64,000 nucleotides of DNA from a phage. Position 1 is the first letter of the stretch; each line of letters begins with the position of its first letter. Positions 16,651 through 23,867 of the stretch are shown piece after piece. The DNA is taken from sequence record PV730300.1. One strand, given 5' to 3'. The position numbers were made by a program, and so were the translations under genes. The notes beneath the pieces were generated by a model. It made no database searches. It had not been told where the DNA came from and was given only the letters and a program-made list of their open reading frames with translations.

Positions 16651-17244
16651 TTACCAAGGAATATCATCTTCTTCCAATCTGGCATCTACTTGAGGTGGAC
16701 GTGGAACCTTAACCTCTTTCACAAAACGAAGATATGGGAAACGTGTAGCAATTTTAATAACATGTTTGGCATCTTCTCTAACATCTTTGTGCAAGAAGCA
16801 GATCCCTGTTTCCAAGGTTGTTTCAAAATCTTTAGAATAATAACAGTCCTTCCCATCAAATGCAGCCTGGCAGATGGACAGATCGAACTCATTTAGAAAG
16901 GTTGTCATTACGCTTGGTTCCATAATCATAAGGTTGCAAAGCTGACCATCACGTTCAAACTCAAAAACGTGTTTAAGACCAGTAACACCTTCATAATTGT
17001 CAGAAGCCTCTTTGTTTCCTAGTTTACGAATATTGGTTCCCATTAAAGCAGATGCAATTAATCCTTGTATTTGTTCTTCAGTCTGATGTGCAGGAAGGGA
17101 TGTATAGAAATCCAGATCACGTCCAGCAATATCAAGAATACGCCAATCACGAACAGCACCGCCAGCCAAGACAGAATTAGGATCAGCGATCTTTAATACG
17201 GTAAGAATCTCTTTGGCAATATTGATTTGTTTTGATTTAGTCAT
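16651..17244 (-). CDS. minimal nucleotidyltransferase-fold protein (197 aa), CCA-adding-enzyme-like head domain
   Basis: LAGGAVRD...DLD matches the GGxVRD / DxD signature of class II tRNA nucleotidyltransferase / poly(A) polymerase heads; C-terminus ends EEDDIPW. Confidence 0.45.
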   Translation of the reverse strand: MTKSKQINIAKEILTVLKIADPNSVLAGGAVRDWRILDIAGRDLDFYTSLPAHQTEEQIQGLIASALMGTNIRKLGNKEASDNYEGVTGLKHVFEFERDGQLCNLMIMEPSVMTTFLNEFDLSICQAAFDGKDCYYSKDFETTLETGICFLHKDVREDAKHVIKIATRFPYLRFVKEVKVPRPPQVDARLEEDDIPW

Positions 17245-17633: not shown

Positions 17634-17824
17634 TAATCTTCCTCCAGATCAATTTCATTGTAACAATGTATGCAGAAACCATCATTGTGCATATGTTGTT
17701 CATAAGACATATCTTTACCACAAGACCAACAACGGATATCCCCATCGTCCCATTCACGTTCTTCTTCACCTTCAAATTCATCTGGTAGGTAAGGCATACC
17801 AAGACAATCTAAATCGTAATGCAT
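17633..17824 (-). CDS. small zinc-ribbon protein (63 aa)
   Basis: CWSCG...CIHC cysteine pairs; GGAGGAG RBS. Confidence 0.45.
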   Translation of the reverse strand: MHYDLDCLGMPYLPDEFEGEEEREWDDGDIRCWSCGKDMSYEQHMHNDGFCIHCYNEIDLEED

Positions 17825-17837
17825 ATCTCCTCCTATA

Positions 17838-17855
17838 AAGGGGCAGAAGCCCCTT
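17838..17855 (-). other. stem-loop between DNA polymerase and downstream gene (possible attenuator or processing site)
   Basis: AAGGGGC-agaa-GCCCCTT hairpin; no clear U tract on either strand. Confidence 0.3.
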
Positions 17856-17872
17856 ATAAAACAATGAGTTAA

Positions 17873-20470
17873 CTAGTGACAGGACGCCCAGGAATTACCC
17901 ACATCATACCCAGCAGTAAGCTGAACATTAAGATTGTAAAATTCTCCAGCCTTAGTAACAGCTAAAGCAGCAAGTTCACCTGCCCGACTATAAGCTGTAA
18001 ACCATCCACCTTTGGGAGATTCATGAATGTTAGCCCAAATTTGCCCTGTCTCTTTTTCCTTATTATGCTTCCATTCTTCGACTTTAGCAAGGCATTCTTT
18101 ATCAATTTTCTTTTGTTCTTCAGGATCGTCTACTTTCTTCCAACCTAATGATTCAGGTGAAAACCATTTAAATTCTACAAGGTTACGAGAAACTTCAAGC
18201 TGGGCTTCATCGTGATATGCAATCATTTGTTGCACGAAATCTTTATTCTTCCAGTCATCTTTAAAGAAGTCAACACTTAATCCTTCTTCTTCGATCATGT
18301 CGTCATAAATAACCATTGCACGTTTAGCACAGATAACCCCACCACTTTGGAACAGAGAGTTAAGAATCGCGTGAGCAGAACGAGTAGGAACCTTACGACC
18401 GTCAATACCCAAAACATATTGTTTACCAGTCTTAACCCAGAAATCGTTTAAACGTTCTTTAAGACGCGCCAATGGGAATGCAGCTTCCCAGAAAGCATCG
18501 AACACCAATTGACCTGTAAACTTATCGCTACCAATTGTTTTAGCAACCTTGTCGGCTTGTGCACCATAGGTAATACCATACTTAACAGATTTAGCAGGAC
18601 TACGTTCAAATTTACGTCCAATAGTTTCAGTGATACGTTTTGCCATCATTGTGTGAACATCGTTAGGTTTCTCTAACAACAGAGCGTTACAATATTCGTG
18701 TGGCTCCGGCTCGTACCGCCAACAGTAGTGTGATTCAATTTTTGCTTCCAAAGAGTCGAAGTCGTAGCCGATCTGGAAGTATTTAGGAACCTCCACACCA
18801 AACAAGTTACGCATCTCCCATCCAAACAAAGATGTGACACGAGGAATATTAGCTACAGATCTATGCTTCATACGAGAGGTTGCAGCATCACATGTAGCGG
18901 CTGGGGTAGGAATACGACCATCCGCCCTTACTGCGGCTAAGAAACCTTTATCGTATTCTTGATCTTCCTCATCTTCTTCCCAATCAGCACCACCACCTAA
19001 AATAGAATTCCTACGATGCTTATACGTTAAGTATTCTACAATCTGTGTAGCATAAGGGAATTTCTCACCCAAAGCTTGCAGGTTAGGACAGATTTCTTTT
19101 TCCTGACCTTTGGTAAAGCATGGGTTAGTCAATACTTTAAGACCGCGACCTTTACCTTTTGCTATACGCTCTTGAATCTTCCTCTCCAAGGTTTCCGGTG
19201 TGCACTCCAGATGATCACAACGATCCTGACAAAAATTAGAAGATAGAGTTTGCTCAACGTAAGCTCGAATACCTTTCTGAAGTTCTTCCTCGCTCTTTTT
19301 AATCTTGGTGCCAGATTTAAGAGTCAAGTCTTTATCTTTATATTCAGACGGTACCCAACCTAATCCTACAAGCCAGTTTTTAATATGGGTAGTATCGTTC
19401 AATGTTGCAGGTATGTTAGGATCACACAAAGGCTCATCTGCTGCAACTGGCAGTTTCCACTCTTTCCCCAACATCACTAACCACCAATCTCCATCCCTCT
19501 CTTCCAAATGACCATCATGTTTCTTAGCAAAATTGATCATATGGTTAGTTGGCTCTAAGTTCTTTTTAATTTGCAACTTAGGTGGAATAAAAGCCTTAAG
19601 ATAACCTTTTGTTGCTGGTTTAGGTGGCAAAATAGGCTCAACGAGTAAACGAAGACGCTCCATTTCTGCATCCAAAAAAGCAAGGTTCTCTTCTGCTTGC
19701 TTCATGTTAAAAGCAAACCCACGGTGTTCCTGGCGTGTAATAATGTCTGCTACACGTTGTTCAAGTTCAAATGGACCTTCCCATTTATCATAATCGCCCC
19801 ATTCTTCCATAAGGTAATTATATACGCTCGTATTGGCTTTGTTGTCATAGATACAGTAATAAAGCATATCCGCAGCAAAAGTCTTAAATCGATCTTCTTC
19901 TGGAATCTCTTTACGGAAATCTATTTTTACATCACCACCTGCCTTTCGAGAAAGTGCTGCCAAACTATGTCCTGATTTGCCCTCAATCTTTCGATCTGGG
20001 TTTAACACTTTACTCAAAATCAAGGAGTCAATAAGTTTTACCTTATTTTTGCCCCACGTGTTATATTTAACACTGTAATCTAAGCCATAAAACAGTTTTG
20101 TAGCCAACCAGTCGTAGTTGATACCGTTGTGAGCCACAGCCATTTCAACCAGATATTCAGGCTTATCTTTAAAATAACCTTCATGATTAATAAAGTCTGG
20201 GAAATCTTTTAGTTGAAAATGTGTGTAATCTTGCGCCACATATTCTTTAAGAACATATGTGTATTTACCATCTGACTCTTCATAAGGACGCCCATCAAAG
20301 ATGTATTTAGGGCCATCGTGGAAAGCTACTATTTCTCCTGTTTCATGGTTCTCTAAGACAATACAGTGCATTTGAAATGTGTCTTTGAGACGATAAGGAC
20401 TAGCTAAATAATCGATAGTGTCATTATTCAACAATCCGTTTGCTTCAATATCCCATGTAAACTTACTCAC
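17873..20470 (-). CDS. family-A DNA polymerase with 3'-5' exonuclease domain (865 aa)
   Basis: N-terminal WDIEANGL exo motif; GIDGRKVPTRSAHAILNSLFQSGGVICAKRAM and the C-terminal ...NSWASCH tail align by eye with T7 gp5-type polymerases. Confidence 0.9.
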   Translation of the reverse strand: MSKFTWDIEANGLLNNDTIDYLASPYRLKDTFQMHCIVLENHETGEIVAFHDGPKYIFDGRPYEESDGKYTYVLKEYVAQDYTHFQLKDFPDFINHEGYFKDKPEYLVEMAVAHNGINYDWLATKLFYGLDYSVKYNTWGKNKVKLIDSLILSKVLNPDRKIEGKSGHSLAALSRKAGGDVKIDFRKEIPEEDRFKTFAADMLYYCIYDNKANTSVYNYLMEEWGDYDKWEGPFELEQRVADIITRQEHRGFAFNMKQAEENLAFLDAEMERLRLLVEPILPPKPATKGYLKAFIPPKLQIKKNLEPTNHMINFAKKHDGHLEERDGDWWLVMLGKEWKLPVAADEPLCDPNIPATLNDTTHIKNWLVGLGWVPSEYKDKDLTLKSGTKIKKSEEELQKGIRAYVEQTLSSNFCQDRCDHLECTPETLERKIQERIAKGKGRGLKVLTNPCFTKGQEKEICPNLQALGEKFPYATQIVEYLTYKHRRNSILGGGADWEEDEEDQEYDKGFLAAVRADGRIPTPAATCDAATSRMKHRSVANIPRVTSLFGWEMRNLFGVEVPKYFQIGYDFDSLEAKIESHYCWRYEPEPHEYCNALLLEKPNDVHTMMAKRITETIGRKFERSPAKSVKYGITYGAQADKVAKTIGSDKFTGQLVFDAFWEAAFPLARLKERLNDFWVKTGKQYVLGIDGRKVPTRSAHAILNSLFQSGGVICAKRAMVIYDDMIEEEGLSVDFFKDDWKNKDFVQQMIAYHDEAQLEVSRNLVEFKWFSPESLGWKKVDDPEEQKKIDKECLAKVEEWKHNKEKETGQIWANIHESPKGGWFTAYSRAGELAALAVTKAGEFYNLNVQLTAGYDVGNSWASCH

Positions 20471-21264
20471 TATTCCTCCTTTCTAATGTTCTCCAGAACC
20501 CACTGAAGTTCTTTTAAACTTAAACTTCTTACTCCCGCAGTTTTACTAGCTTCAGCTTTAAGTAACGGGTAAGCCTCAATGATACGCGTTTTAAGATCAG
20601 AAGTCAAGGCTTTTAAAAAATAGGTAGATGCTTCAGATAAAGAATCTTCTTCTGATAACACTTTACCTGCACTTGCTCCCGCTCTCCTAACAGCTATATC
20701 GTAGTCTTTACTGTTACCTAATACGAATAATCGATTCTCTCCTAAAACAACGGGAGAACGCTTCTCGTTGCGTTTAATCCATACCTGGAATACACAAGGA
20801 ACATCCCAAGGTTCTCCATGAAGAATAAAAGATCCTTTTGGACATTCTTCTTCGTAAAGAAGATGCATATGGGGATTTAGTTTGTGTGCAAAAAAGATTT
20901 TTTGAAATGTGCGAGGCAAGATAAAACAAATACCACCTTCGTTATCCAGCATTTCAGCACAATGGTTAAAGAATTTAATGGCAAGACTAGCATTTTTTCC
21001 AAAAGGAGGATTACCGACAAAAGCAGTTACACTACCAACAGACTCAACAGATTGAGCTAAAAAATCTGCCTCAATACAATCTTCAAACTTAGGGTCAATA
21101 TCAAAAGAAGTTATGTTTTTAAAACAAGAAGAGAAAGCTCCTTCTCCCGCAGATGGTTCTACGTAGTTAGCTTCCTCTCCAAAAATTTCTTTGATCTTAT
21201 CACATAAGAACCCCGCATAAGCGGGGTTAGTGTAATATTGATCAAGTGTGTTCAACTTGCTCAA
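20470..21264 (-). CDS. DNA methyltransferase (N6-adenine or N4-cytosine class), no adjacent restriction enzyme recognised
   Basis: SAM-binding EPSAGEGAF and catalytic NPPFG motifs; its stop overlaps the polymerase start. Confidence 0.7.
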   Translation of the reverse strand: MSKLNTLDQYYTNPAYAGFLCDKIKEIFGEEANYVEPSAGEGAFSSCFKNITSFDIDPKFEDCIEADFLAQSVESVGSVTAFVGNPPFGKNASLAIKFFNHCAEMLDNEGGICFILPRTFQKIFFAHKLNPHMHLLYEEECPKGSFILHGEPWDVPCVFQVWIKRNEKRSPVVLGENRLFVLGNSKDYDIAVRRAGASAGKVLSEEDSLSEASTYFLKALTSDLKTRIIEAYPLLKAEASKTAGVRSLSLKELQWVLENIRKEE

Positions 21265-21273
21265 TAGTCCTCC

Positions 21274-21705
21274 TTAGTTGTTAGCGAACTCAATAGTGAG
21301 GTCAACTTTACCATCATCAGAAATAACCATGTTTTTAGTATTTTTAAAGATGATATCTACTTTACCTTCACTTACACGACAGAAGGCAACACCATCTGCA
21401 ACTTTATCGATATAATATTTGTAAGAAAGAATACCCACTTTACTACGACCAGCACCTTTTGTGAAAGAAGGGCTTACATCGAAACGGAAACCTTTGGAAG
21501 AAACAACACGGTAAGAACGTCCAGTTGGGATATGTTCAATAACAGAAACATTGTTCTCAACAACTTTTACAGCAAACTCTTCAGGATGATCCTCAACAAT
21601 CATATGTGGGATGGCAAATGCCAACGCTTGTTTGTGTTTAATAACACCAGCACCCAGAGCACCAGCAGCTTTAACTTTTGCATTCAGATCGATTGTCATA
21701 CGCAT
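21274..21705 (-). CDS. hypothetical protein (143 aa)
   Basis: ORF with its own promoter-like element upstream; no motif recognised. Confidence 0.45.
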   Translation of the reverse strand: MRMTIDLNAKVKAAGALGAGVIKHKQALAFAIPHMIVEDHPEEFAVKVVENNVSVIEHIPTGRSYRVVSSKGFRFDVSPSFTKGAGRSKVGILSYKYYIDKVADGVAFCRVSEGKVDIIFKNTKNMVISDDGKVDLTIEFANN

Positions 21706-21739
21706 TTTTACTTCTCCTCTTGTTTGGTTGATGAGACAA

Positions 21740-21767
21740 GTATAAGTCCCTTCCGCAAAGTTGTCAA
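21740..21767 (-). promoter_or_regulatory. sigma70-like promoter for 21274-21705
   Basis: On minus strand: TTGACA, 16-nt spacer, TTATAC. Confidence 0.4.
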
Positions 21768-21769
21768 CA

Positions 21770-21799
21770 GGTATTTTTAATAAAAGGGCCGAAGCCCTT
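21770..21799 (-). terminator. rho-independent terminator after primase-helicase gene
   Basis: AAGGGC-ttcg-GCCCTT hairpin followed on the minus strand by TTTATTAAAAA. Confidence 0.5.
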
Positions 21800-23576
21800 A
21801 ATAGTTGCTATCCGTAGGCAAATTAGCAGGATTGTTGAAATACTGCTCTTTGTCATGCAGAGTTGCAGTTCTAATGTCATAGTAAAACTGCCCTGCCGGA
21901 CCAGTTTCCGAGAACTCACGGTTTTTTAGGATAAAGCAATGAGTCGTATTTCGTTCTACAGGGTCTTCAGCGGCTTTATCTCGTTCCAAAGCCAAGGTAA
22001 TACCAGCGCCTTTAGCCAAGAAACTACTACCCATTGCATCGTCCTCTGTTAAGTGTTCATTGCCACCATTAGCCGATTTCTTAACGTGTGAGATGACGAT
22101 AATAGTTATAGCATACTCTTTCATGATGCGCTTCAACCATGTTGCTAACTCTTCCTGGGCTTGAACATCCATACCAGAAAGCAAATCAGAATAAGGGTCG
22201 ATAACAAGAATTGTTACTCCAAAATAGATGATCATCTCCAAAACTTTTTCTTTGATAGACTCCACATCTGCTCCACGATCATCACACACATAAAAACGTG
22301 GTGATCCATCTTCTCTTTCGTAAAAATCTAGGATTTTTTCTTTATTCTCTTCCAGGATTTGAAATTTCTCTTCCGGTGTTTTCCTATGTAGAGGAATATG
22401 CAGGAACGAGGACAACAGGTTACGAGAATATTTCTTATAAGTTGCTTCCAATGACAGAATACCAAGAGTATGTTCTGGGTGTGCAACGATAATATGTTTG
22501 GTGATCTCATTCACCATCAAAGTTTTACCGATACTGGTCTTTGCCAGAATGACTGTAATCTCTTCCTCTACTAAACCACCACCCAGCATATTTGCAGCAA
22601 CACGCATAAAAGGAGGCAAGGTAATCATCTTGGATTCCAAGCATTCTAATGCAGCTTCATACAAGACATTAGAAGCATAAACACCTGCTGGGGTGTATAG
22701 ACGAGCACTCCAAAAAGCTTTTACGAAATCCTTTGCACGACCTTCTTCCAGATACTGATTGGCATCCTTAAGATCCATCTGCATACGGTAGACTTTGTTA
22801 CGAGGCAACACCTTAACAATATTTTCAAATGCCTCATTACCCGCTTTGTCATTATCCATGCAAACAATAATCTTCTTAAATTTTTCAAAGAAAGGATATT
22901 GTGCCTGAACTTGTTTATACATACTGGTTTCACCAGTTGTGCCACTAACTACTGCTGGAAGTTCATATTTGTTGTCCAAGTTTTCAGACAGCATTTGATA
23001 AGCTGCCAGAGCATCGTGTTCACCACCTGTAATTACCACAGTATGAGAACGGTCTGCAAAACGAATTTGTCCAAAAAGATCTACATCTTTACCTACTTGA
23101 CCAATAGGTTTACTGAAATCTTTAGGATGGATACGACGCTTAAAACCAACCAATTCTTTACCGATGGTAGTTGGATATAAACAACTTTCTACTACCATCT
23201 GATCCCCTTCCTGACGGTATTCATAACGAACACCATAGAAAGATGAAACTTTTTCTTTAATGCCTCGATAACCACGTGGGTTGGTTGATGTTTCTTGAAC
23301 AATTTTACGATGAATCTGTTTATTAAATTCCGAACCCACAATCTCCTCCTCTTCTTCTAAAACTTCACCATTTTCTCGTAACCATTCTACGCTAGGAATA
23401 GTGTATTCACACGCAAAGCACTTAGCACCTTTATGCTCTCCATTAGAATCTAATCCATAAACCATCAAGTTATTACGAGAGCGATCCTTGCCATTTTTCA
23501 TGCAGCGCGGACAACCTGTATGCCCTTCCTTGCTAAGATCAACATCAAATCCATATTTAGTTATAATGTGCGACAC
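21798..23576 (-). CDS. bifunctional primase-helicase, T7 gp4-like (592 aa)
   Basis: N-terminal zinc finger (CPRC...CFAC), TOPRIM-like DNDKAGNEA, DnaB-family Walker A (GKT) region. Confidence 0.85.
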   Translation of the reverse strand: MSHIITKYGFDVDLSKEGHTGCPRCMKNGKDRSRNNLMVYGLDSNGEHKGAKCFACEYTIPSVEWLRENGEVLEEEEEIVGSEFNKQIHRKIVQETSTNPRGYRGIKEKVSSFYGVRYEYRQEGDQMVVESCLYPTTIGKELVGFKRRIHPKDFSKPIGQVGKDVDLFGQIRFADRSHTVVITGGEHDALAAYQMLSENLDNKYELPAVVSGTTGETSMYKQVQAQYPFFEKFKKIIVCMDNDKAGNEAFENIVKVLPRNKVYRMQMDLKDANQYLEEGRAKDFVKAFWSARLYTPAGVYASNVLYEAALECLESKMITLPPFMRVAANMLGGGLVEEEITVILAKTSIGKTLMVNEITKHIIVAHPEHTLGILSLEATYKKYSRNLLSSFLHIPLHRKTPEEKFQILEENKEKILDFYEREDGSPRFYVCDDRGADVESIKEKVLEMIIYFGVTILVIDPYSDLLSGMDVQAQEELATWLKRIMKEYAITIIVISHVKKSANGGNEHLTEDDAMGSSFLAKGAGITLALERDKAAEDPVERNTTHCFILKNREFSETGPAGQFYYDIRTATLHDKEQYFNNPANLPTDSNY

Positions 23577-23588
23577 TTTGTTCTCCTG

Positions 23589-23867
23589 TTAAAATGGTTC
23601 GTTAGTCTCCATCATATATTCTGCTTCTAGTTCTTCCATGTGCTTTCTAAATTGGAAAGCAATTTCTGCTACAGTTACATTTAAATCTTTTTCAAAAACT
23701 TCTGTAGAGCCTTCGTAAAAACGAATACCGTCAATTAAAAGCCCTCCGTGGTAATCCCAATCACTTTCACGAGAAAGCGGGTTAGGCTCTTCATAATAGT
23801 AATCCACCTCCACGACTAAAGCTTTCCCGTTACGAGTGGTGTATTCAAAATCAAAAGTGTTAATCAT
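23589..23867 (-). CDS. hypothetical protein (92 aa)
   Basis: ORF translationally coupled to neighbours. Confidence 0.45.
   Translation of the reverse strand: MINTFDFEYTTRNGKALVVEVDYYYEEPNPLSRESDWDYHGGLLIDGIRFYEGSTEVFEKDLNVTVAEIAFQFRKHMEELEAEYMMETNEPF

What the first reader, a model, noticed from the sequence alone, without database searches (positions are those of the whole stretch)
20470..21264. DNA methyltransferase without a recognisable partner restriction enzyme, overlapping the polymerase start
The ORF has SAM-binding and NPPF-type catalytic motifs of amino-methyltransferases and no adjacent restriction endonuclease was recognised. Solitary methyltransferases of this kind in phages typically protect the genome from host restriction.
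Basis: partly seen in the sequence, partly recalled or inferred. Interest (0 to 1): 0.4.

Follow-up and report, generated by a model that had tools for sequence, protein, structure and literature searches.

The report
Orphan phage DNA adenine methyltransferase
This is an ordinary gene of a phAPEC8-like coliphage, already annotated in public records: a DNA adenine methyltransferase with no restriction-enzyme partner, sitting just upstream of the DNA polymerase gene, and its target sequence is still unknown.

Summary
Window 20470..21264 (- strand) is a 264-aa ORF with a TTG start and a strong ribosome-binding site. Its TAG stop shares one base with the GTG start of the family-A DNA polymerase.

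- **Source and annotation.** The window is a Phapecoctavirus, 98.4-98.7% identical to phAPEC8 relatives. In phAPEC8 this gene is gp188, 'putative DNA N6-adenine methyltransferase'. The rV5 homologue (54% identity) carries the same name.
- **Sequence and structure.** All gamma-class motifs are present in order, including GNPPFGK. A confident AlphaFold model (pLDDT 94.8) matches M.BseCI, MmeI, M.TaqI and CamA over both domains. RNA methylases such as METTL5 match only the catalytic core.
- **Family membership.** Pfam and NCBIfam have no model for the family. PADLOC's Type II methyltransferase model matches at 3.6e-36.
- **Bacterial relatives.** In 18 of 79 loci the homologue is followed directly by a conserved, uncharacterised ~215-aa protein whose predicted fold matches PD-(D/E)XK restriction enzymes. 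In 2 loci the neighbour belongs to the R.PabI family. Neither protein has a homologue in the window, so the phage gene is an orphan.
- **Open points.** The target site was not determined; GTAC is the best lead. The anti-restriction role is inferred.

Verdict: already known, low interest.

The parts
20470..21264 (-). Coding sequence of the 264-aa orphan gamma-class N6-adenine DNA methyltransferase homologue (equivalent to phAPEC8 gp188). TTG start, TAG stop.
21223..21246 (-). Motif X, LDQYYTNP (residues 7-14). This N-terminal helix motif is typical of gamma-class enzymes.
   Evidence: Translation; D8, Y11 and T12 are conserved or invariant; aligns with LEQYPT of Ta1320 and METTL5.
21133..21162 (-). 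Motif I, VEPSAGEGAF (residues 35-44), the SAM-binding loop.
   Evidence: E36, G40 and G42 invariant; P37, S38, A39 and F44 at least 90% conserved.
21091..21105 (-). Motif II, FDIDP (residues 54-58). The acidic residue D55 is expected to contact the SAM ribose.
   Evidence: D55 and P58 invariant. The role is inferred from established knowledge of class I methyltransferases.
21058..21069 (-). Motif III, ADFL (residues 66-69).
   Evidence: D67 and F68 at least 90% conserved.
20995..21015 (-). Motif IV, GNPPFGK (residues 84-90), the catalytic NPPF loop that receives the flipped adenine.
   Evidence: N85, P86, P87 and G89 invariant; codons GGT AAT CCT CCT TTT GGA AAA read.
20473..20754 (-). C-terminal domain (residues ~171-264), equivalent to the target-recognition domain. 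Conserved RRxG (193-196) and TxGxxS (242-247).
21262..21275 (-). Ribosome-binding site AAGGAGG, 4-nt spacer and TTG start of the methyltransferase gene. It overlaps the TAA stop of the upstream ORF.
   Evidence: Sequence.
20468..20480 (-). Junction AGGAGGAATAGTG: the polymerase ribosome-binding site lies inside the methyltransferase coding sequence, and the TAG stop and the polymerase GTG start share base 20470. This suggests translational coupling.
   Evidence: Sequence; ORF coordinates; same 1-nt overlap in the phAPEC8 annotation.
17873..20470 (-). Family-A (T7-like) DNA polymerase, the downstream gene in the same transcription unit.
   Evidence: Pfam DNA_pol_A 1.4e-13; PHROG 17 2.7e-111.
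21274..21705 (-). 143-aa ORF of unknown function (PHROG 9938), immediately upstream. A homologue is also adjacent to the rV5 methyltransferase.
   Evidence: PHROG 9938 2e-62; BLASTP 2e-13 to rV5 gp097; no Pfam, PADLOC or PDB match; not related to the bacterial restriction partner (hhalign probability 1.4%).
21739..21767 (-). Sigma-70-like promoter TTGACA-17-TATACT (11 of 12 matches) upstream of the 143-aa ORF. It is the likely start of the transcript 143-aa ORF - methyltransferase - polymerase.
   Evidence: Consensus scan, with no terminator-like site anywhere in 17700-22000; phAPEC8 annotates a 'putative host dependent promoter' at the equivalent place. The scan found no more promoter-like sites than shuffled sequence, so this is a consensus match only.
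21798..23576 (-). T7-like primase/helicase, the upstream flank of the variable slot that holds the 143-aa ORF and the methyltransferase.
   Evidence: Pfam Toprim_2 and DnaB_C; PHROG 239 2.4e-164.

Best explanation
The ORF encodes a stand-alone ('orphan') Type II, gamma-class, SAM-dependent DNA N6-adenine methyltransferase.

**Expression.** It is transcribed with the replication genes, apparently from a sigma-70-like promoter upstream of the 143-aa ORF. It is translated from a TTG start, and its stop codon is coupled to the start of the DNA polymerase gene. The enzyme would therefore be made while phage DNA is being replicated.

**Mechanism.** By analogy with M.TaqI-type enzymes, the N-terminal Rossmann domain binds SAM through EPSAGxGxF, D55 and D67/F68. 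The short C-terminal domain reads a short DNA site. The target adenine is flipped into the N85-P-P-F88 pocket and methylated at N6.

**Consequence.** Progeny genomes would carry m6A at that site and resist restriction enzymes of the same specificity in the next host. The phage's main anti-restriction strategy appears to be avoiding restriction sites altogether, and this methylation would supplement it.

**Shown:** gene, motifs, fold, family membership, restriction partners in bacteria, absence of a partner in the phage.

**Inferred:** catalytic activity, DNA as the in vivo substrate, timing of expression, the protective role, and the target site. The best lead for the site is GTAC, at roughly 35-40% likelihood.
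For: **Identity of the phage and the gene**
- The window is 98.4-98.7% identical to Phapecoctavirus genomes.
- The protein is 99% identical to phAPEC8 gp188 and 54% identical to rV5 gp096, both annotated as putative DNA N6-adenine methyltransferases.

**Sequence and structure**
- Motifs X, I, II, III and IV occur in gamma order and are invariant across 113 homologues.
- The AlphaFold model has pLDDT 94.8 and pTM 0.90.
- PADLOC Type II methyltransferase models match at 3.6e-36 and 2.2e-28 over nearly the full length.

**Bacterial relatives**
- In 18 of 79 bacterial or archaeal loci the homologue is followed on the same strand, from a 22-nt overlap to a 10-nt gap (88-nt overlap in L029), by a conserved ~215-aa protein.
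- Two further loci have an R.PabI-family neighbour (Pfam 8.3e-16).
- Three loci show fusion to Eco57I-type or N6_N4 DNA methyltransferase domains.
- The family is scattered sporadically across phyla, as restriction-modification genes are.

**Orphan status and selection in phages**
- No partner homologue is in the window or in the annotation of a close relative.
- The neighbours differ in rV5 and in Pseudomonas phage KIL1.
- The sister genus (PHB05) lacks the gene at the same position.
- Alleles differ mainly at synonymous codons.

**GTAC lead**
- R.PabI-family systems target GTAC, and their methyltransferases are gamma-type with a C-terminal recognition domain (PMC4615327, PMC2588503).
- The C-terminal domain of the R.PabI-linked homologue L047 is up to 47% identical to that of homologues linked to the PD-(D/E)XK partner.
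- GTAC counts, observed over expected: relatives lacking the gene in this slot 0/38; genomes with the gene 69/228, 4/23.5 and 89/185.
Against: - No biochemical or methylome data for this protein or any close homologue were found in the searchable literature.
- By sequence alone, the best solved relatives are RNA methylases: Ta1320 at 4.6e-5 and METTL5 at 5.5e-4, against M.TaqI at 0.11.
- Pfam gives only a sub-threshold Eco57I match (15.6 bits against a 25.3 cut-off). NCBIfam gives nothing.
- rV5-like phages and relatives that encode the homologue are reported as exceptionally sensitive to EcoKI, EcoCFT_I, EcoRI, EcoRV, EcoCFT_II and EcoP1_I. Any protection is therefore narrow.
- GTAC is the most depleted palindromic tetramer in the window (observed/expected 0.33). 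A fully protected site would not be expected to be depleted.
- Comparing site avoidance between genomes gave conflicting candidates, AAGCTT and GTAC.
Confidence: 0.78

Rival explanations
1. The enzyme methylates DNA, but its main job is not anti-restriction. It could provide an epigenetic signal for the phage itself, for example for replication, packaging, gene-expression timing, or marking phage DNA apart from host DNA.
For: - The gene is embedded in, and translationally coupled to, the replication genes.
- In rV5 and KIL1 it again sits among replication and nucleotide-metabolism genes.
- Phages carrying it remain highly sensitive to restriction-modification systems.
- The phage already removes most restriction sites from its genome.
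Against: - The gene is dispensable across close lineages. It is absent from the same slot in PHB05 and in metagenomic relatives, as expected for an accessory defence gene.
- Its bacterial relatives are components of restriction-modification systems.
Confidence: 0.15
2. The methyltransferase and the adjacent 143-aa protein (PHROG 9938) work as a two-gene module, so the gene is not an orphan. The small protein could be a novel nuclease, a specificity or regulatory subunit, or an accessory factor.
For: - Homologues of both genes are adjacent in Phapecoctavirus, in Klebsiella phage 05F01 and in rV5. In rV5 the pair sits at a different genome position and in the opposite order.
- PHB05 lacks the methyltransferase in all 95 kb read, and lacks the small protein at the primase-polymerase slot and in the 90-140 kb segment searched.
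Against: - Metagenomic relatives have the small protein (50% identity) between the primase/helicase and the polymerase with an unrelated 112-aa ORF in place of the methyltransferase.
- No homologue of the small protein lies beside any of the 79 bacterial methyltransferase genes or in KIL1.
- It has no nuclease motifs and no Pfam, PADLOC or PDB match, and it is unrelated to the bacterial restriction partner.
Confidence: 0.1
3. It is an RNA N6-adenine methyltransferase of the METTL5 / COG2263 type, modifying host or phage rRNA or tRNA.
For: - The best sequence matches among solved structures are Ta1320 and METTL5.
- JGI names several homologues 'predicted RNA methylase'.
- A tRNA nucleotidyltransferase homologue is encoded nearby at 16651..17244.
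Against: - The RNA-enzyme matches cover only the ~150-residue catalytic core. The extra C-terminal domain aligns with the recognition domains of DNA enzymes.
- Bacterial homologues are paired with restriction-enzyme-like proteins and fused to DNA methyltransferase domains.
- The distribution is sporadic, not that of a housekeeping gene.
Confidence: 0.04
4. The gene is a decaying, catalytically inactive remnant.
For: It has an unusual TTG start. Several genome annotations call it 'hypothetical protein', and the 05F01 record annotates it as split.
Against: - Every catalytic and SAM-binding residue is intact and invariant.
- 196 phage records carry at least 80% of the protein's length.
- Allelic differences are mostly synonymous.
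- The 05F01 reading frame is in fact intact at 261 aa.
- The 'hypothetical' labels reflect the absence of a Pfam or NCBIfam model.
Confidence: 0.03

Closest known systems
phAPEC8 gp188 (AFU62759) and rV5 gp096 (YP_002003598), annotated 'putative DNA N6-adenine methyltransferase'
   Same: phAPEC8 gp188 is the same gene. It is 264 aa, ~99% identical, has the same neighbours, and has the same 1-nt overlap with the polymerase gene. rV5 gp096 is 54% identical over 98% of the length.
   Different: There is no difference from gp188. In rV5 the gene sits after the polymerase exonuclease subunit instead of before PolA, and the small PHROG-9938 gene follows it rather than preceding it. Neither protein has been characterised experimentally, as far as the searchable literature shows.
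M.TaqI / M.BseCI / CamA-type gamma-class Type II DNA N6-adenine methyltransferases (solved structures)
   Different: Sequence identity is only 13-19%, and the profile E-value to M.TaqI is 0.11. This protein is much smaller, at 264 aa against 421-580 aa, and its recognition domain is only ~95 residues. Its specificity is unknown.
M.PabI / M.HpyAXII family (methyltransferases of the GTAC-specific restriction-glycosylase systems)
   Same: These are described as gamma-type adenine methyltransferases with a C-terminal recognition domain that is short in the bacterial members. The M.HpyAXII catalytic Asn is residue 87 (PMC4615327, PMC2588503); here it is N85. Two bacterial members of this protein's family (35-37% identical) lie directly upstream of R.PabI-family genes.
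   Different: A direct sequence comparison with M.PabI or M.HpyAXII could not be made. M.HpyAXII is 331 aa. The phage has no R.PabI homologue (no restriction enzyme is annotated in the close relative; the window was not searched with an R.PabI profile). GTAC is strongly depleted in the phage rather than neutral.
METTL5 / Ta1320 / PH1948 (rRNA m6A methyltransferases, COG2263)
   Different: They are single-domain proteins of ~200 aa with no C-terminal recognition-type domain. METTL5 works with TRMT112 on 18S rRNA. The family described here is sporadic, linked to restriction enzymes and fused to DNA methyltransferase domains.
Classical phage orphan methyltransferases (T4 Dam, P1 Dam/Dmt, T1/Drexlerviridae Dam)
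   Same: They share the same biological logic: a phage-encoded methyltransferase without a matching nuclease. This comparison rests on established knowledge.
   Different: Those enzymes are alpha-class, Dam-like and GATC-specific. This one is gamma-class and unrelated in motif order. GATC is neither avoided nor enriched in the window (observed/expected 1.02).

Membership tests
Gamma-class (TaqI-like) DNA N6-adenine methyltransferases | Linear order: motif X, then I (SAM loop), II, III, IV (catalytic), V-VIII, then a C-terminal target-recognition domain | tested here: met
   LDQYYTNP (7-14), VEPSAGEGAF (35-44), FDIDP (54-58), ADFL (66-69), GNPPFGK (84-90), then a separate C-terminal domain.
Gamma-class (TaqI-like) DNA N6-adenine methyltransferases | Catalytic (N/D)PP(Y/F/W) tetrapeptide | tested here: met
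   N85-P86-P87-F88. N85, P86 and P87 are invariant and F88 is at least 90% conserved in 113 homologues.
Gamma-class (TaqI-like) DNA N6-adenine methyltransferases | Two-domain fold superimposable on solved members | tested here: met
Gamma-class (TaqI-like) DNA N6-adenine methyltransferases | Sequence-specific transfer of methyl from SAM to N6 of adenine in duplex DNA | not testable with these tools
   This needs a methylome or biochemistry. No published data were found.
Type II restriction-modification methyltransferase (PADLOC MTase_II models) | Significant, near-full-length match to a Type II methyltransferase profile | tested here: met
   PDLC03255 at 3.6e-36, residues 21-254 against profile positions 15-250 of 269. 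PDLC03256 at 2.2e-28.
Type II restriction-modification methyltransferase (PADLOC MTase_II models) | Matching restriction endonuclease encoded next to it | tested here: not met
   Met for bacterial homologues: 18 of 79 loci have a PD-(D/E)XK-like partner and 2 have an R.PabI-family partner. Not met in the phage: the PD-(D/E)XK-like partner has no homologue in the window (the R.PabI-family partner was not searched against it), none is annotated in a close relative, and the neighbours vary between phages. The gene is therefore an orphan member.
Pfam PF07669 (Eco57I restriction-modification methylase) | Score at or above the Pfam gathering threshold | tested here: not met
   15.6 bits against a 25.3 cut-off, E = 0.017. 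NCBIfam gives no match. The family has no curated Pfam or NCBIfam model.
METTL5 / COG2263 rRNA m6A methyltransferases | Single-domain ~200-aa enzyme with no DNA-recognition domain, conserved as a housekeeping gene | tested here: not met
   An extra ~95-residue C-terminal domain aligns with the recognition domains of DNA methyltransferases. The distribution is sporadic, the gene is linked to restriction enzymes, and it is fused to DNA methyltransferase domains.
M.PabI / M.HpyAXII (GTAC) methyltransferases | Adjacent to an R.PabI-family restriction glycosylase | tested here: not met
   No restriction enzyme is annotated in the close relative; the window was not searched with an R.PabI profile. 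Two bacterial homologues (L046, L047) do have such a neighbour.
M.PabI / M.HpyAXII (GTAC) methyltransferases | Sequence homology to M.PabI or M.HpyAXII, and GTm6AC methylation (resistance to RsaI) | not tested
The RsaI test is described in PMC2588503.

The most novel reading that the evidence does not exclude
The methyltransferase may not be a true orphan. It and the adjacent 143-aa PHROG-9938 protein may form a conserved two-gene phage module. The two genes are adjacent in Phapecoctavirus, in Klebsiella phage 05F01 and in rV5, where the pair sits at a different locus and in the reverse order. PHB05, of the sister genus Justusliebigvirus, lacks the methyltransferase in the 95 kb read and the small protein in the parts searched. 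The small protein could be a new kind of nuclease, a specificity factor or a methylation reader.

A milder version is that the enzyme is GTAC-specific and covers the few GTAC sites that extreme site avoidance cannot remove.
Probability: 0.1. Interest if true: 0.45.

Novelty: already known. Interest (0 to 1): 0.15.

Why it matters
There is little new here. The gene has been annotated as a putative DNA N6-adenine methyltransferase since rV5 and phAPEC8 were deposited, and orphan methyltransferases are commonplace in phages.

Three modest points of value remain:

1. **Annotation gap.** The family has no Pfam or NCBIfam model, so many recent genome records call the gene 'hypothetical protein'. The fold match and the restriction-system context in bacteria put the annotation on firmer ground.
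2. **Phage therapy relevance.** Phapecoctavirus and rV5-like phages are popular therapy and biocontrol candidates. Their host range is partly set by restriction, so knowing the methylated site would help in choosing production hosts. A simple RsaI digest would test GTAC.
3. **A new bacterial restriction candidate.** The bacterial relatives reveal an uncharacterised ~215-aa family of PD-(D/E)XK restriction-enzyme candidates.

Tried and rejected
1. **Curated family models.** Pfam and NCBIfam scans of the protein and its homologues gave only sub-threshold hits. The precomputed PF26055 label on some homologues could not be reproduced or identified.

2. **RNA-methylase reading.** This was prompted by the PDB sequence hits. 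It was rejected on the two-domain fold match and the restriction-enzyme context.

3. **Target site from site avoidance in bacterial flanks.** Tetramers showed no difference between loci with and without the restriction partner. For hexamers, only AGTACT stood out, and taxonomic composition confounds that comparison. Inconclusive.

4. **Target site from phages with and without the gene.**
   - AAGCTT looked striking: 53 sites in the window, 0 in 95 kb of PHB05, 24 in rV5.
   - PHB05 has three other unrelated methyltransferases.
   - Metagenomic relatives that lack the gene in this slot keep AAGCTT.
   - The AAGCTT inference was therefore dropped in favour of a weaker GTAC lead.

5. **Literature.** Searches for methylome or restriction-digest data on rV5 or phAPEC8-like phages found nothing relevant.

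6. **The 143-aa neighbour as a restriction enzyme.**
   - There is no family or PDB match, and no relation to the bacterial partner.
   - The word-indexed homology search found only 5 close clusters.

7. **AlphaFold-database fold search.** The library was unavailable.

8. **PHB05 gp154.** The gene in the same slot was tested as a homologue of the 143-aa ORF. It is not one (E = 1.4).

Full report
**1. What is there**

Window 20470..21264 on the - strand is a 264-aa ORF. It starts with TTG, and AAGGAGG lies 4 nt upstream, overlapping the TAA stop of the preceding 143-aa ORF. Its TAG stop shares base 20470 with the GTG start of an 865-aa ORF (17873..20470). That ORF is a family-A DNA polymerase (Pfam DNA_pol_A 1.4e-13, PHROG 17 2.7e-111). 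The junction reads AGGAGGAATAGTG, so the polymerase ribosome-binding site lies inside the last codons of the methyltransferase gene.

Upstream are the 143-aa ORF (21274..21705) and a T7-like primase/helicase (21798..23576). A sigma-70-like site, TTGACA-17-TATACT at 21767..21739, precedes the 143-aa ORF. No terminator-like site lies between 22000 and 17700. phAPEC8 annotates a promoter at the same place.

**2. Where the window comes from**

The 5.8 kb around the gene is 98.4-98.7% identical to about 65 Phapecoctavirus genomes, including phAPEC8, anhysbys, ETEC-TG and DE16.

- In phAPEC8 the ORF is gp188, 'putative DNA N6-adenine methyltransferase', with the same 1-nt overlap with the polymerase gene.
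- tblastn finds the protein in 228 phage records. There are 65 at 95% identity or more. The hits below 60% identity that were listed are mostly rV5-like Vequintavirus at about 54%. A few distant hits are in jumbo phages, Pseudomonas phages and cyanophages.
- rV5 gp096 carries the same annotation.
- Several newer records call the gene 'hypothetical protein'. The reason is that no curated model covers the family. Pfam gives only a sub-threshold Eco57I hit (15.6 against 25.3 bits), and NCBIfam gives nothing. PHROG 5172 is labelled 'unknown function'.

**3. Is it really a DNA adenine methyltransferase?**

*Sequence.* The motifs occur in gamma-class order: X (LDQYYTNP), I (VEPSAGEGAF), II (FDIDP), III (ADFL), IV (GNPPFGK). 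T12, E36, G40, G42, D55, P58, N85, P86, P87 and G89 are invariant in 113 homologues of 37-90% identity.

*Structure.* An AlphaFold model built on that alignment is confident (pLDDT 94.8, pTM 0.90).
- By sequence profile alone the RNA enzymes lead (Ta1320 4.6e-5, METTL5 5.5e-4, M.TaqI 0.11). This explains the 'predicted RNA methylase' label JGI gives some homologues.

*Family model.* PADLOC's Type II methyltransferase models match over nearly the full length (3.6e-36 and 2.2e-28).

**4. Context in cellular genomes**

A scan of one genome per species found 287 relatives. The best 79 loci are scattered across Sphingomonadales, Paracoccaceae, Dehalococcoidia, Burkholderia, Leclercia, Poribacteria, Verrucomicrobia and a Nitrosopumilus. 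This is the sporadic pattern of mobile restriction-modification genes, not of a housekeeping enzyme.

- **A conserved PD-(D/E)XK-like partner.** In 18 loci the gene is followed on the same strand, from a 22-nt overlap to a 10-nt gap (88-nt overlap in L029), by a conserved ~215-aa protein.
  - This protein has no Pfam, NCBIfam or PDB-sequence match.
  - It has E15, D41/D47, S55-x-K57 and a QRRLQCS motif, invariant or at least 90% conserved.
  - Its model has pLDDT 93.8.
  - It matches PADLOC REase_II at 2.5e-14.
- **An R.PabI-family partner.** In two further loci (L046, L047) the downstream neighbour belongs to this family (Pfam 8.3e-16).
- **Fusions.** In Burkholderia anthina and Paraburkholderia the domain is fused to an Eco57I-type N6 methylase. 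In one Sphingomonas it is fused to an N6_N4 methylase.

Together these results place the family among the methyltransferases of Type II restriction-modification systems and argue strongly for DNA as the substrate.

**5. Orphan status in the phage**

- The PD-(D/E)XK-like partner family has no homologue in the six-frame translation of the 64-kb window (best E = 2.4).
- Only one copy of the methyltransferase family is present.
- In ETEC-TG, 50 kb that covers most of the window has no annotated nuclease or second methyltransferase.
- The neighbours differ in rV5 (polymerase exonuclease subunit upstream) and in KIL1 (ribonucleotide reductase upstream).
- In the sister genus Justusliebigvirus (PHB05), the slot between primase/helicase and polymerase holds an unrelated 131-aa ORF and no methyltransferase. 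A profile search of 95 kb of that genome found no orthologue. PHB05 instead has three unrelated methyltransferases: a C5 type, a small NPPF type and a beta-class DPPY type.
- The gene is therefore an accessory, swappable orphan. Alleles differ mainly at synonymous codons (7-12 synonymous against 1-4 non-synonymous), and 196 records carry at least 80% of the protein's length. This argues that it is functional.

**6. The small neighbour**

The 143-aa ORF (PHROG 9938) is homologous to rV5 gp097 (BLASTP 2e-13, phmmer 2e-7). In rV5 that gene overlaps the 3' end of the methyltransferase gene, at a different genome position and in the opposite order.

In Klebsiella phage 05F01 the order is primase/helicase, small protein, methyltransferase, polymerase. 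The methyltransferase reading frame there is intact even though the record annotates it as split.

This suggested a two-gene cassette. However:
- Metagenomic relatives carry the small protein (50% identity) in the same slot with an unrelated 112-aa ORF in place of the methyltransferase.
- No bacterial locus has the small protein.
- It shows no nuclease signature and no relation to the bacterial partner.

I keep this as a low-probability rival and an unexplained observation.

**7. Target site (not resolved)**

The window shows extreme palindrome avoidance. Twenty of the 64 hexamer palindromes are absent. GTAC is the most depleted tetramer (69 observed against 209.5 expected).

*AAGCTT.* The count is 53 in the window, 24 in rV5 and 0 in 95 kb of PHB05. 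This weakened once PHB05's other methyltransferases were seen, and once relatives lacking the gene in this slot were found to keep AAGCTT.

*GTAC.* This is the better lead, for four reasons:
- R.PabI-family systems are GTAC-specific.
- Their methyltransferases are gamma-type with short C-terminal recognition domains. The M.HpyAXII catalytic Asn is residue 87, against N85 here (PMC4615327, PMC2588503).
- The C-terminal domain of the R.PabI-linked homologue is up to 47% identical to that of homologues linked to the PD-(D/E)XK partner, which suggests one shared specificity.
- Relatives lacking the gene in this slot have no GTAC sites at all (0 of 38 expected). Genomes with the gene retain 17-48% of the expected sites.

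Against the GTAC lead, a fully protected site would not be expected to remain the most depleted one.

I put GTAC at roughly 35-40%. An RsaI digest of virion DNA would settle it.

**8. Function**

The most likely role is narrow anti-restriction protection that supplements site avoidance. The BASEL study found rV5-like phages and relatives 'exceptionally susceptible' to six restriction-modification systems: EcoKI, EcoCFT_I, EcoRI, EcoRV, EcoCFT_II and EcoP1_I. It concluded that they lack effective general protection (PMC8594841). The tested rV5-like phages encode a 54%-identical homologue (for example HeinrichReichert). The enzyme therefore does not cover those sites. No methylome or digest data for these phages were found.

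**9. Verdict**

The feature is an already-annotated, ordinary orphan gamma-class DNA N6-adenine methyltransferase. Interest is low. The residual open points are its target site and the meaning of the recurrent 143-aa neighbour.

Noticed in passing
window 1-64000: Restriction-site avoidance is extreme. Twenty of the 64 hexamer palindromes are completely absent, including CTGCAG, GGATCC, CCATGG and CAGCTG, each expected about 4-13 times. GTAC (observed/expected 0.33), GGCC (0.39), CCGG (0.48) and CTAG (0.55) are depleted. GAATTC (13 sites), GATATC (16) and AAGCTT (53) are not avoided.
   Followed up: partly
window 21274-21705 (-); L085 4782-5240 (rV5 gp097); L093 3501-3926; L094 5001-5432: The 143-aa ORF of unknown function (PHROG 9938, conserved motif PS[FY]TKGxGR) lies next to the methyltransferase in Phapecoctavirus, in Klebsiella phage 05F01 and in rV5, where the order and the locus differ. 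In metagenomic relatives it occurs without the methyltransferase.
   Followed up: partly
L003 6805-7404, L058 5800-6456 and 16 other loci (alignments A2, A3): An uncharacterised family of ~215-aa bacterial proteins sits directly downstream of the methyltransferase homologues. It has no Pfam or NCBIfam model and about 374 database members. It has the predicted fold of a PD-(D/E)XK Type II restriction enzyme, so it is a candidate new restriction endonuclease family of unknown specificity.
   Followed up: partly
window 23867-~27010 (-): Four consecutive glycosyltransferase-like genes lie immediately upstream of the primase/helicase. Relatives annotate them as glycosyltransferases, and the cluster is conserved in PHB05. 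Their substrate (DNA, a host surface glycan, or something else) is unknown.
   Followed up: no
L090 and L092 (PHB05, NC_052652: 1-45000 and 90000-139900): The sister-genus phage PHB05 has no AAGCTT and no GGWCC sites in 95 kb, where about 32 and about 71 are expected. It hardly avoids GTAC (270 observed against 322 expected). It carries three methyltransferases unrelated to the one studied here: gp038 (C5 type), gp050 (169-aa NPPF type) and gp148 (beta-class DPPY type).
   Followed up: partly
L094-L096: Metagenomic relatives that lack the methyltransferase in the primase-polymerase slot have no GTAC sites (38 expected) and no GGWCC sites (about 11 expected) in 8.5-10 kb.
   Followed up: no
window 17800-23600 compared with anhysbys, vB_Ec-G1, REC and Ro121c4YLVW: Several Phapecoctavirus genomes match this stretch in two pieces spanning about 6537 bp instead of 5801 bp. 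This implies an insertion of about 736 bp that is absent from the window. It could be a homing-endonuclease-type element.
   Followed up: no
L093 3907-4689 (Klebsiella phage 05F01): The methyltransferase homologue is annotated as two genes, gene_139 (34 aa) and gene_140 (200 aa). The stop-to-stop reading frame is nevertheless intact at 261 aa. This is probably a mis-annotation caused by a non-ATG start like the TTG seen here.
   Followed up: yes
phage collection records MG0656xx: About 20-25 records named 'Campylobacter phage' (host given as C. jejuni) carry rV5-like or phAPEC8-like versions of these genes at coliphage-level identity. Their organism or host labels look doubtful.
   Followed up: no
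window 16651-17244 (-): A 197-aa tRNA nucleotidyltransferase / poly(A) polymerase-like gene lies three small ORFs downstream of the polymerase. It is annotated as such in phAPEC8.
   Followed up: no
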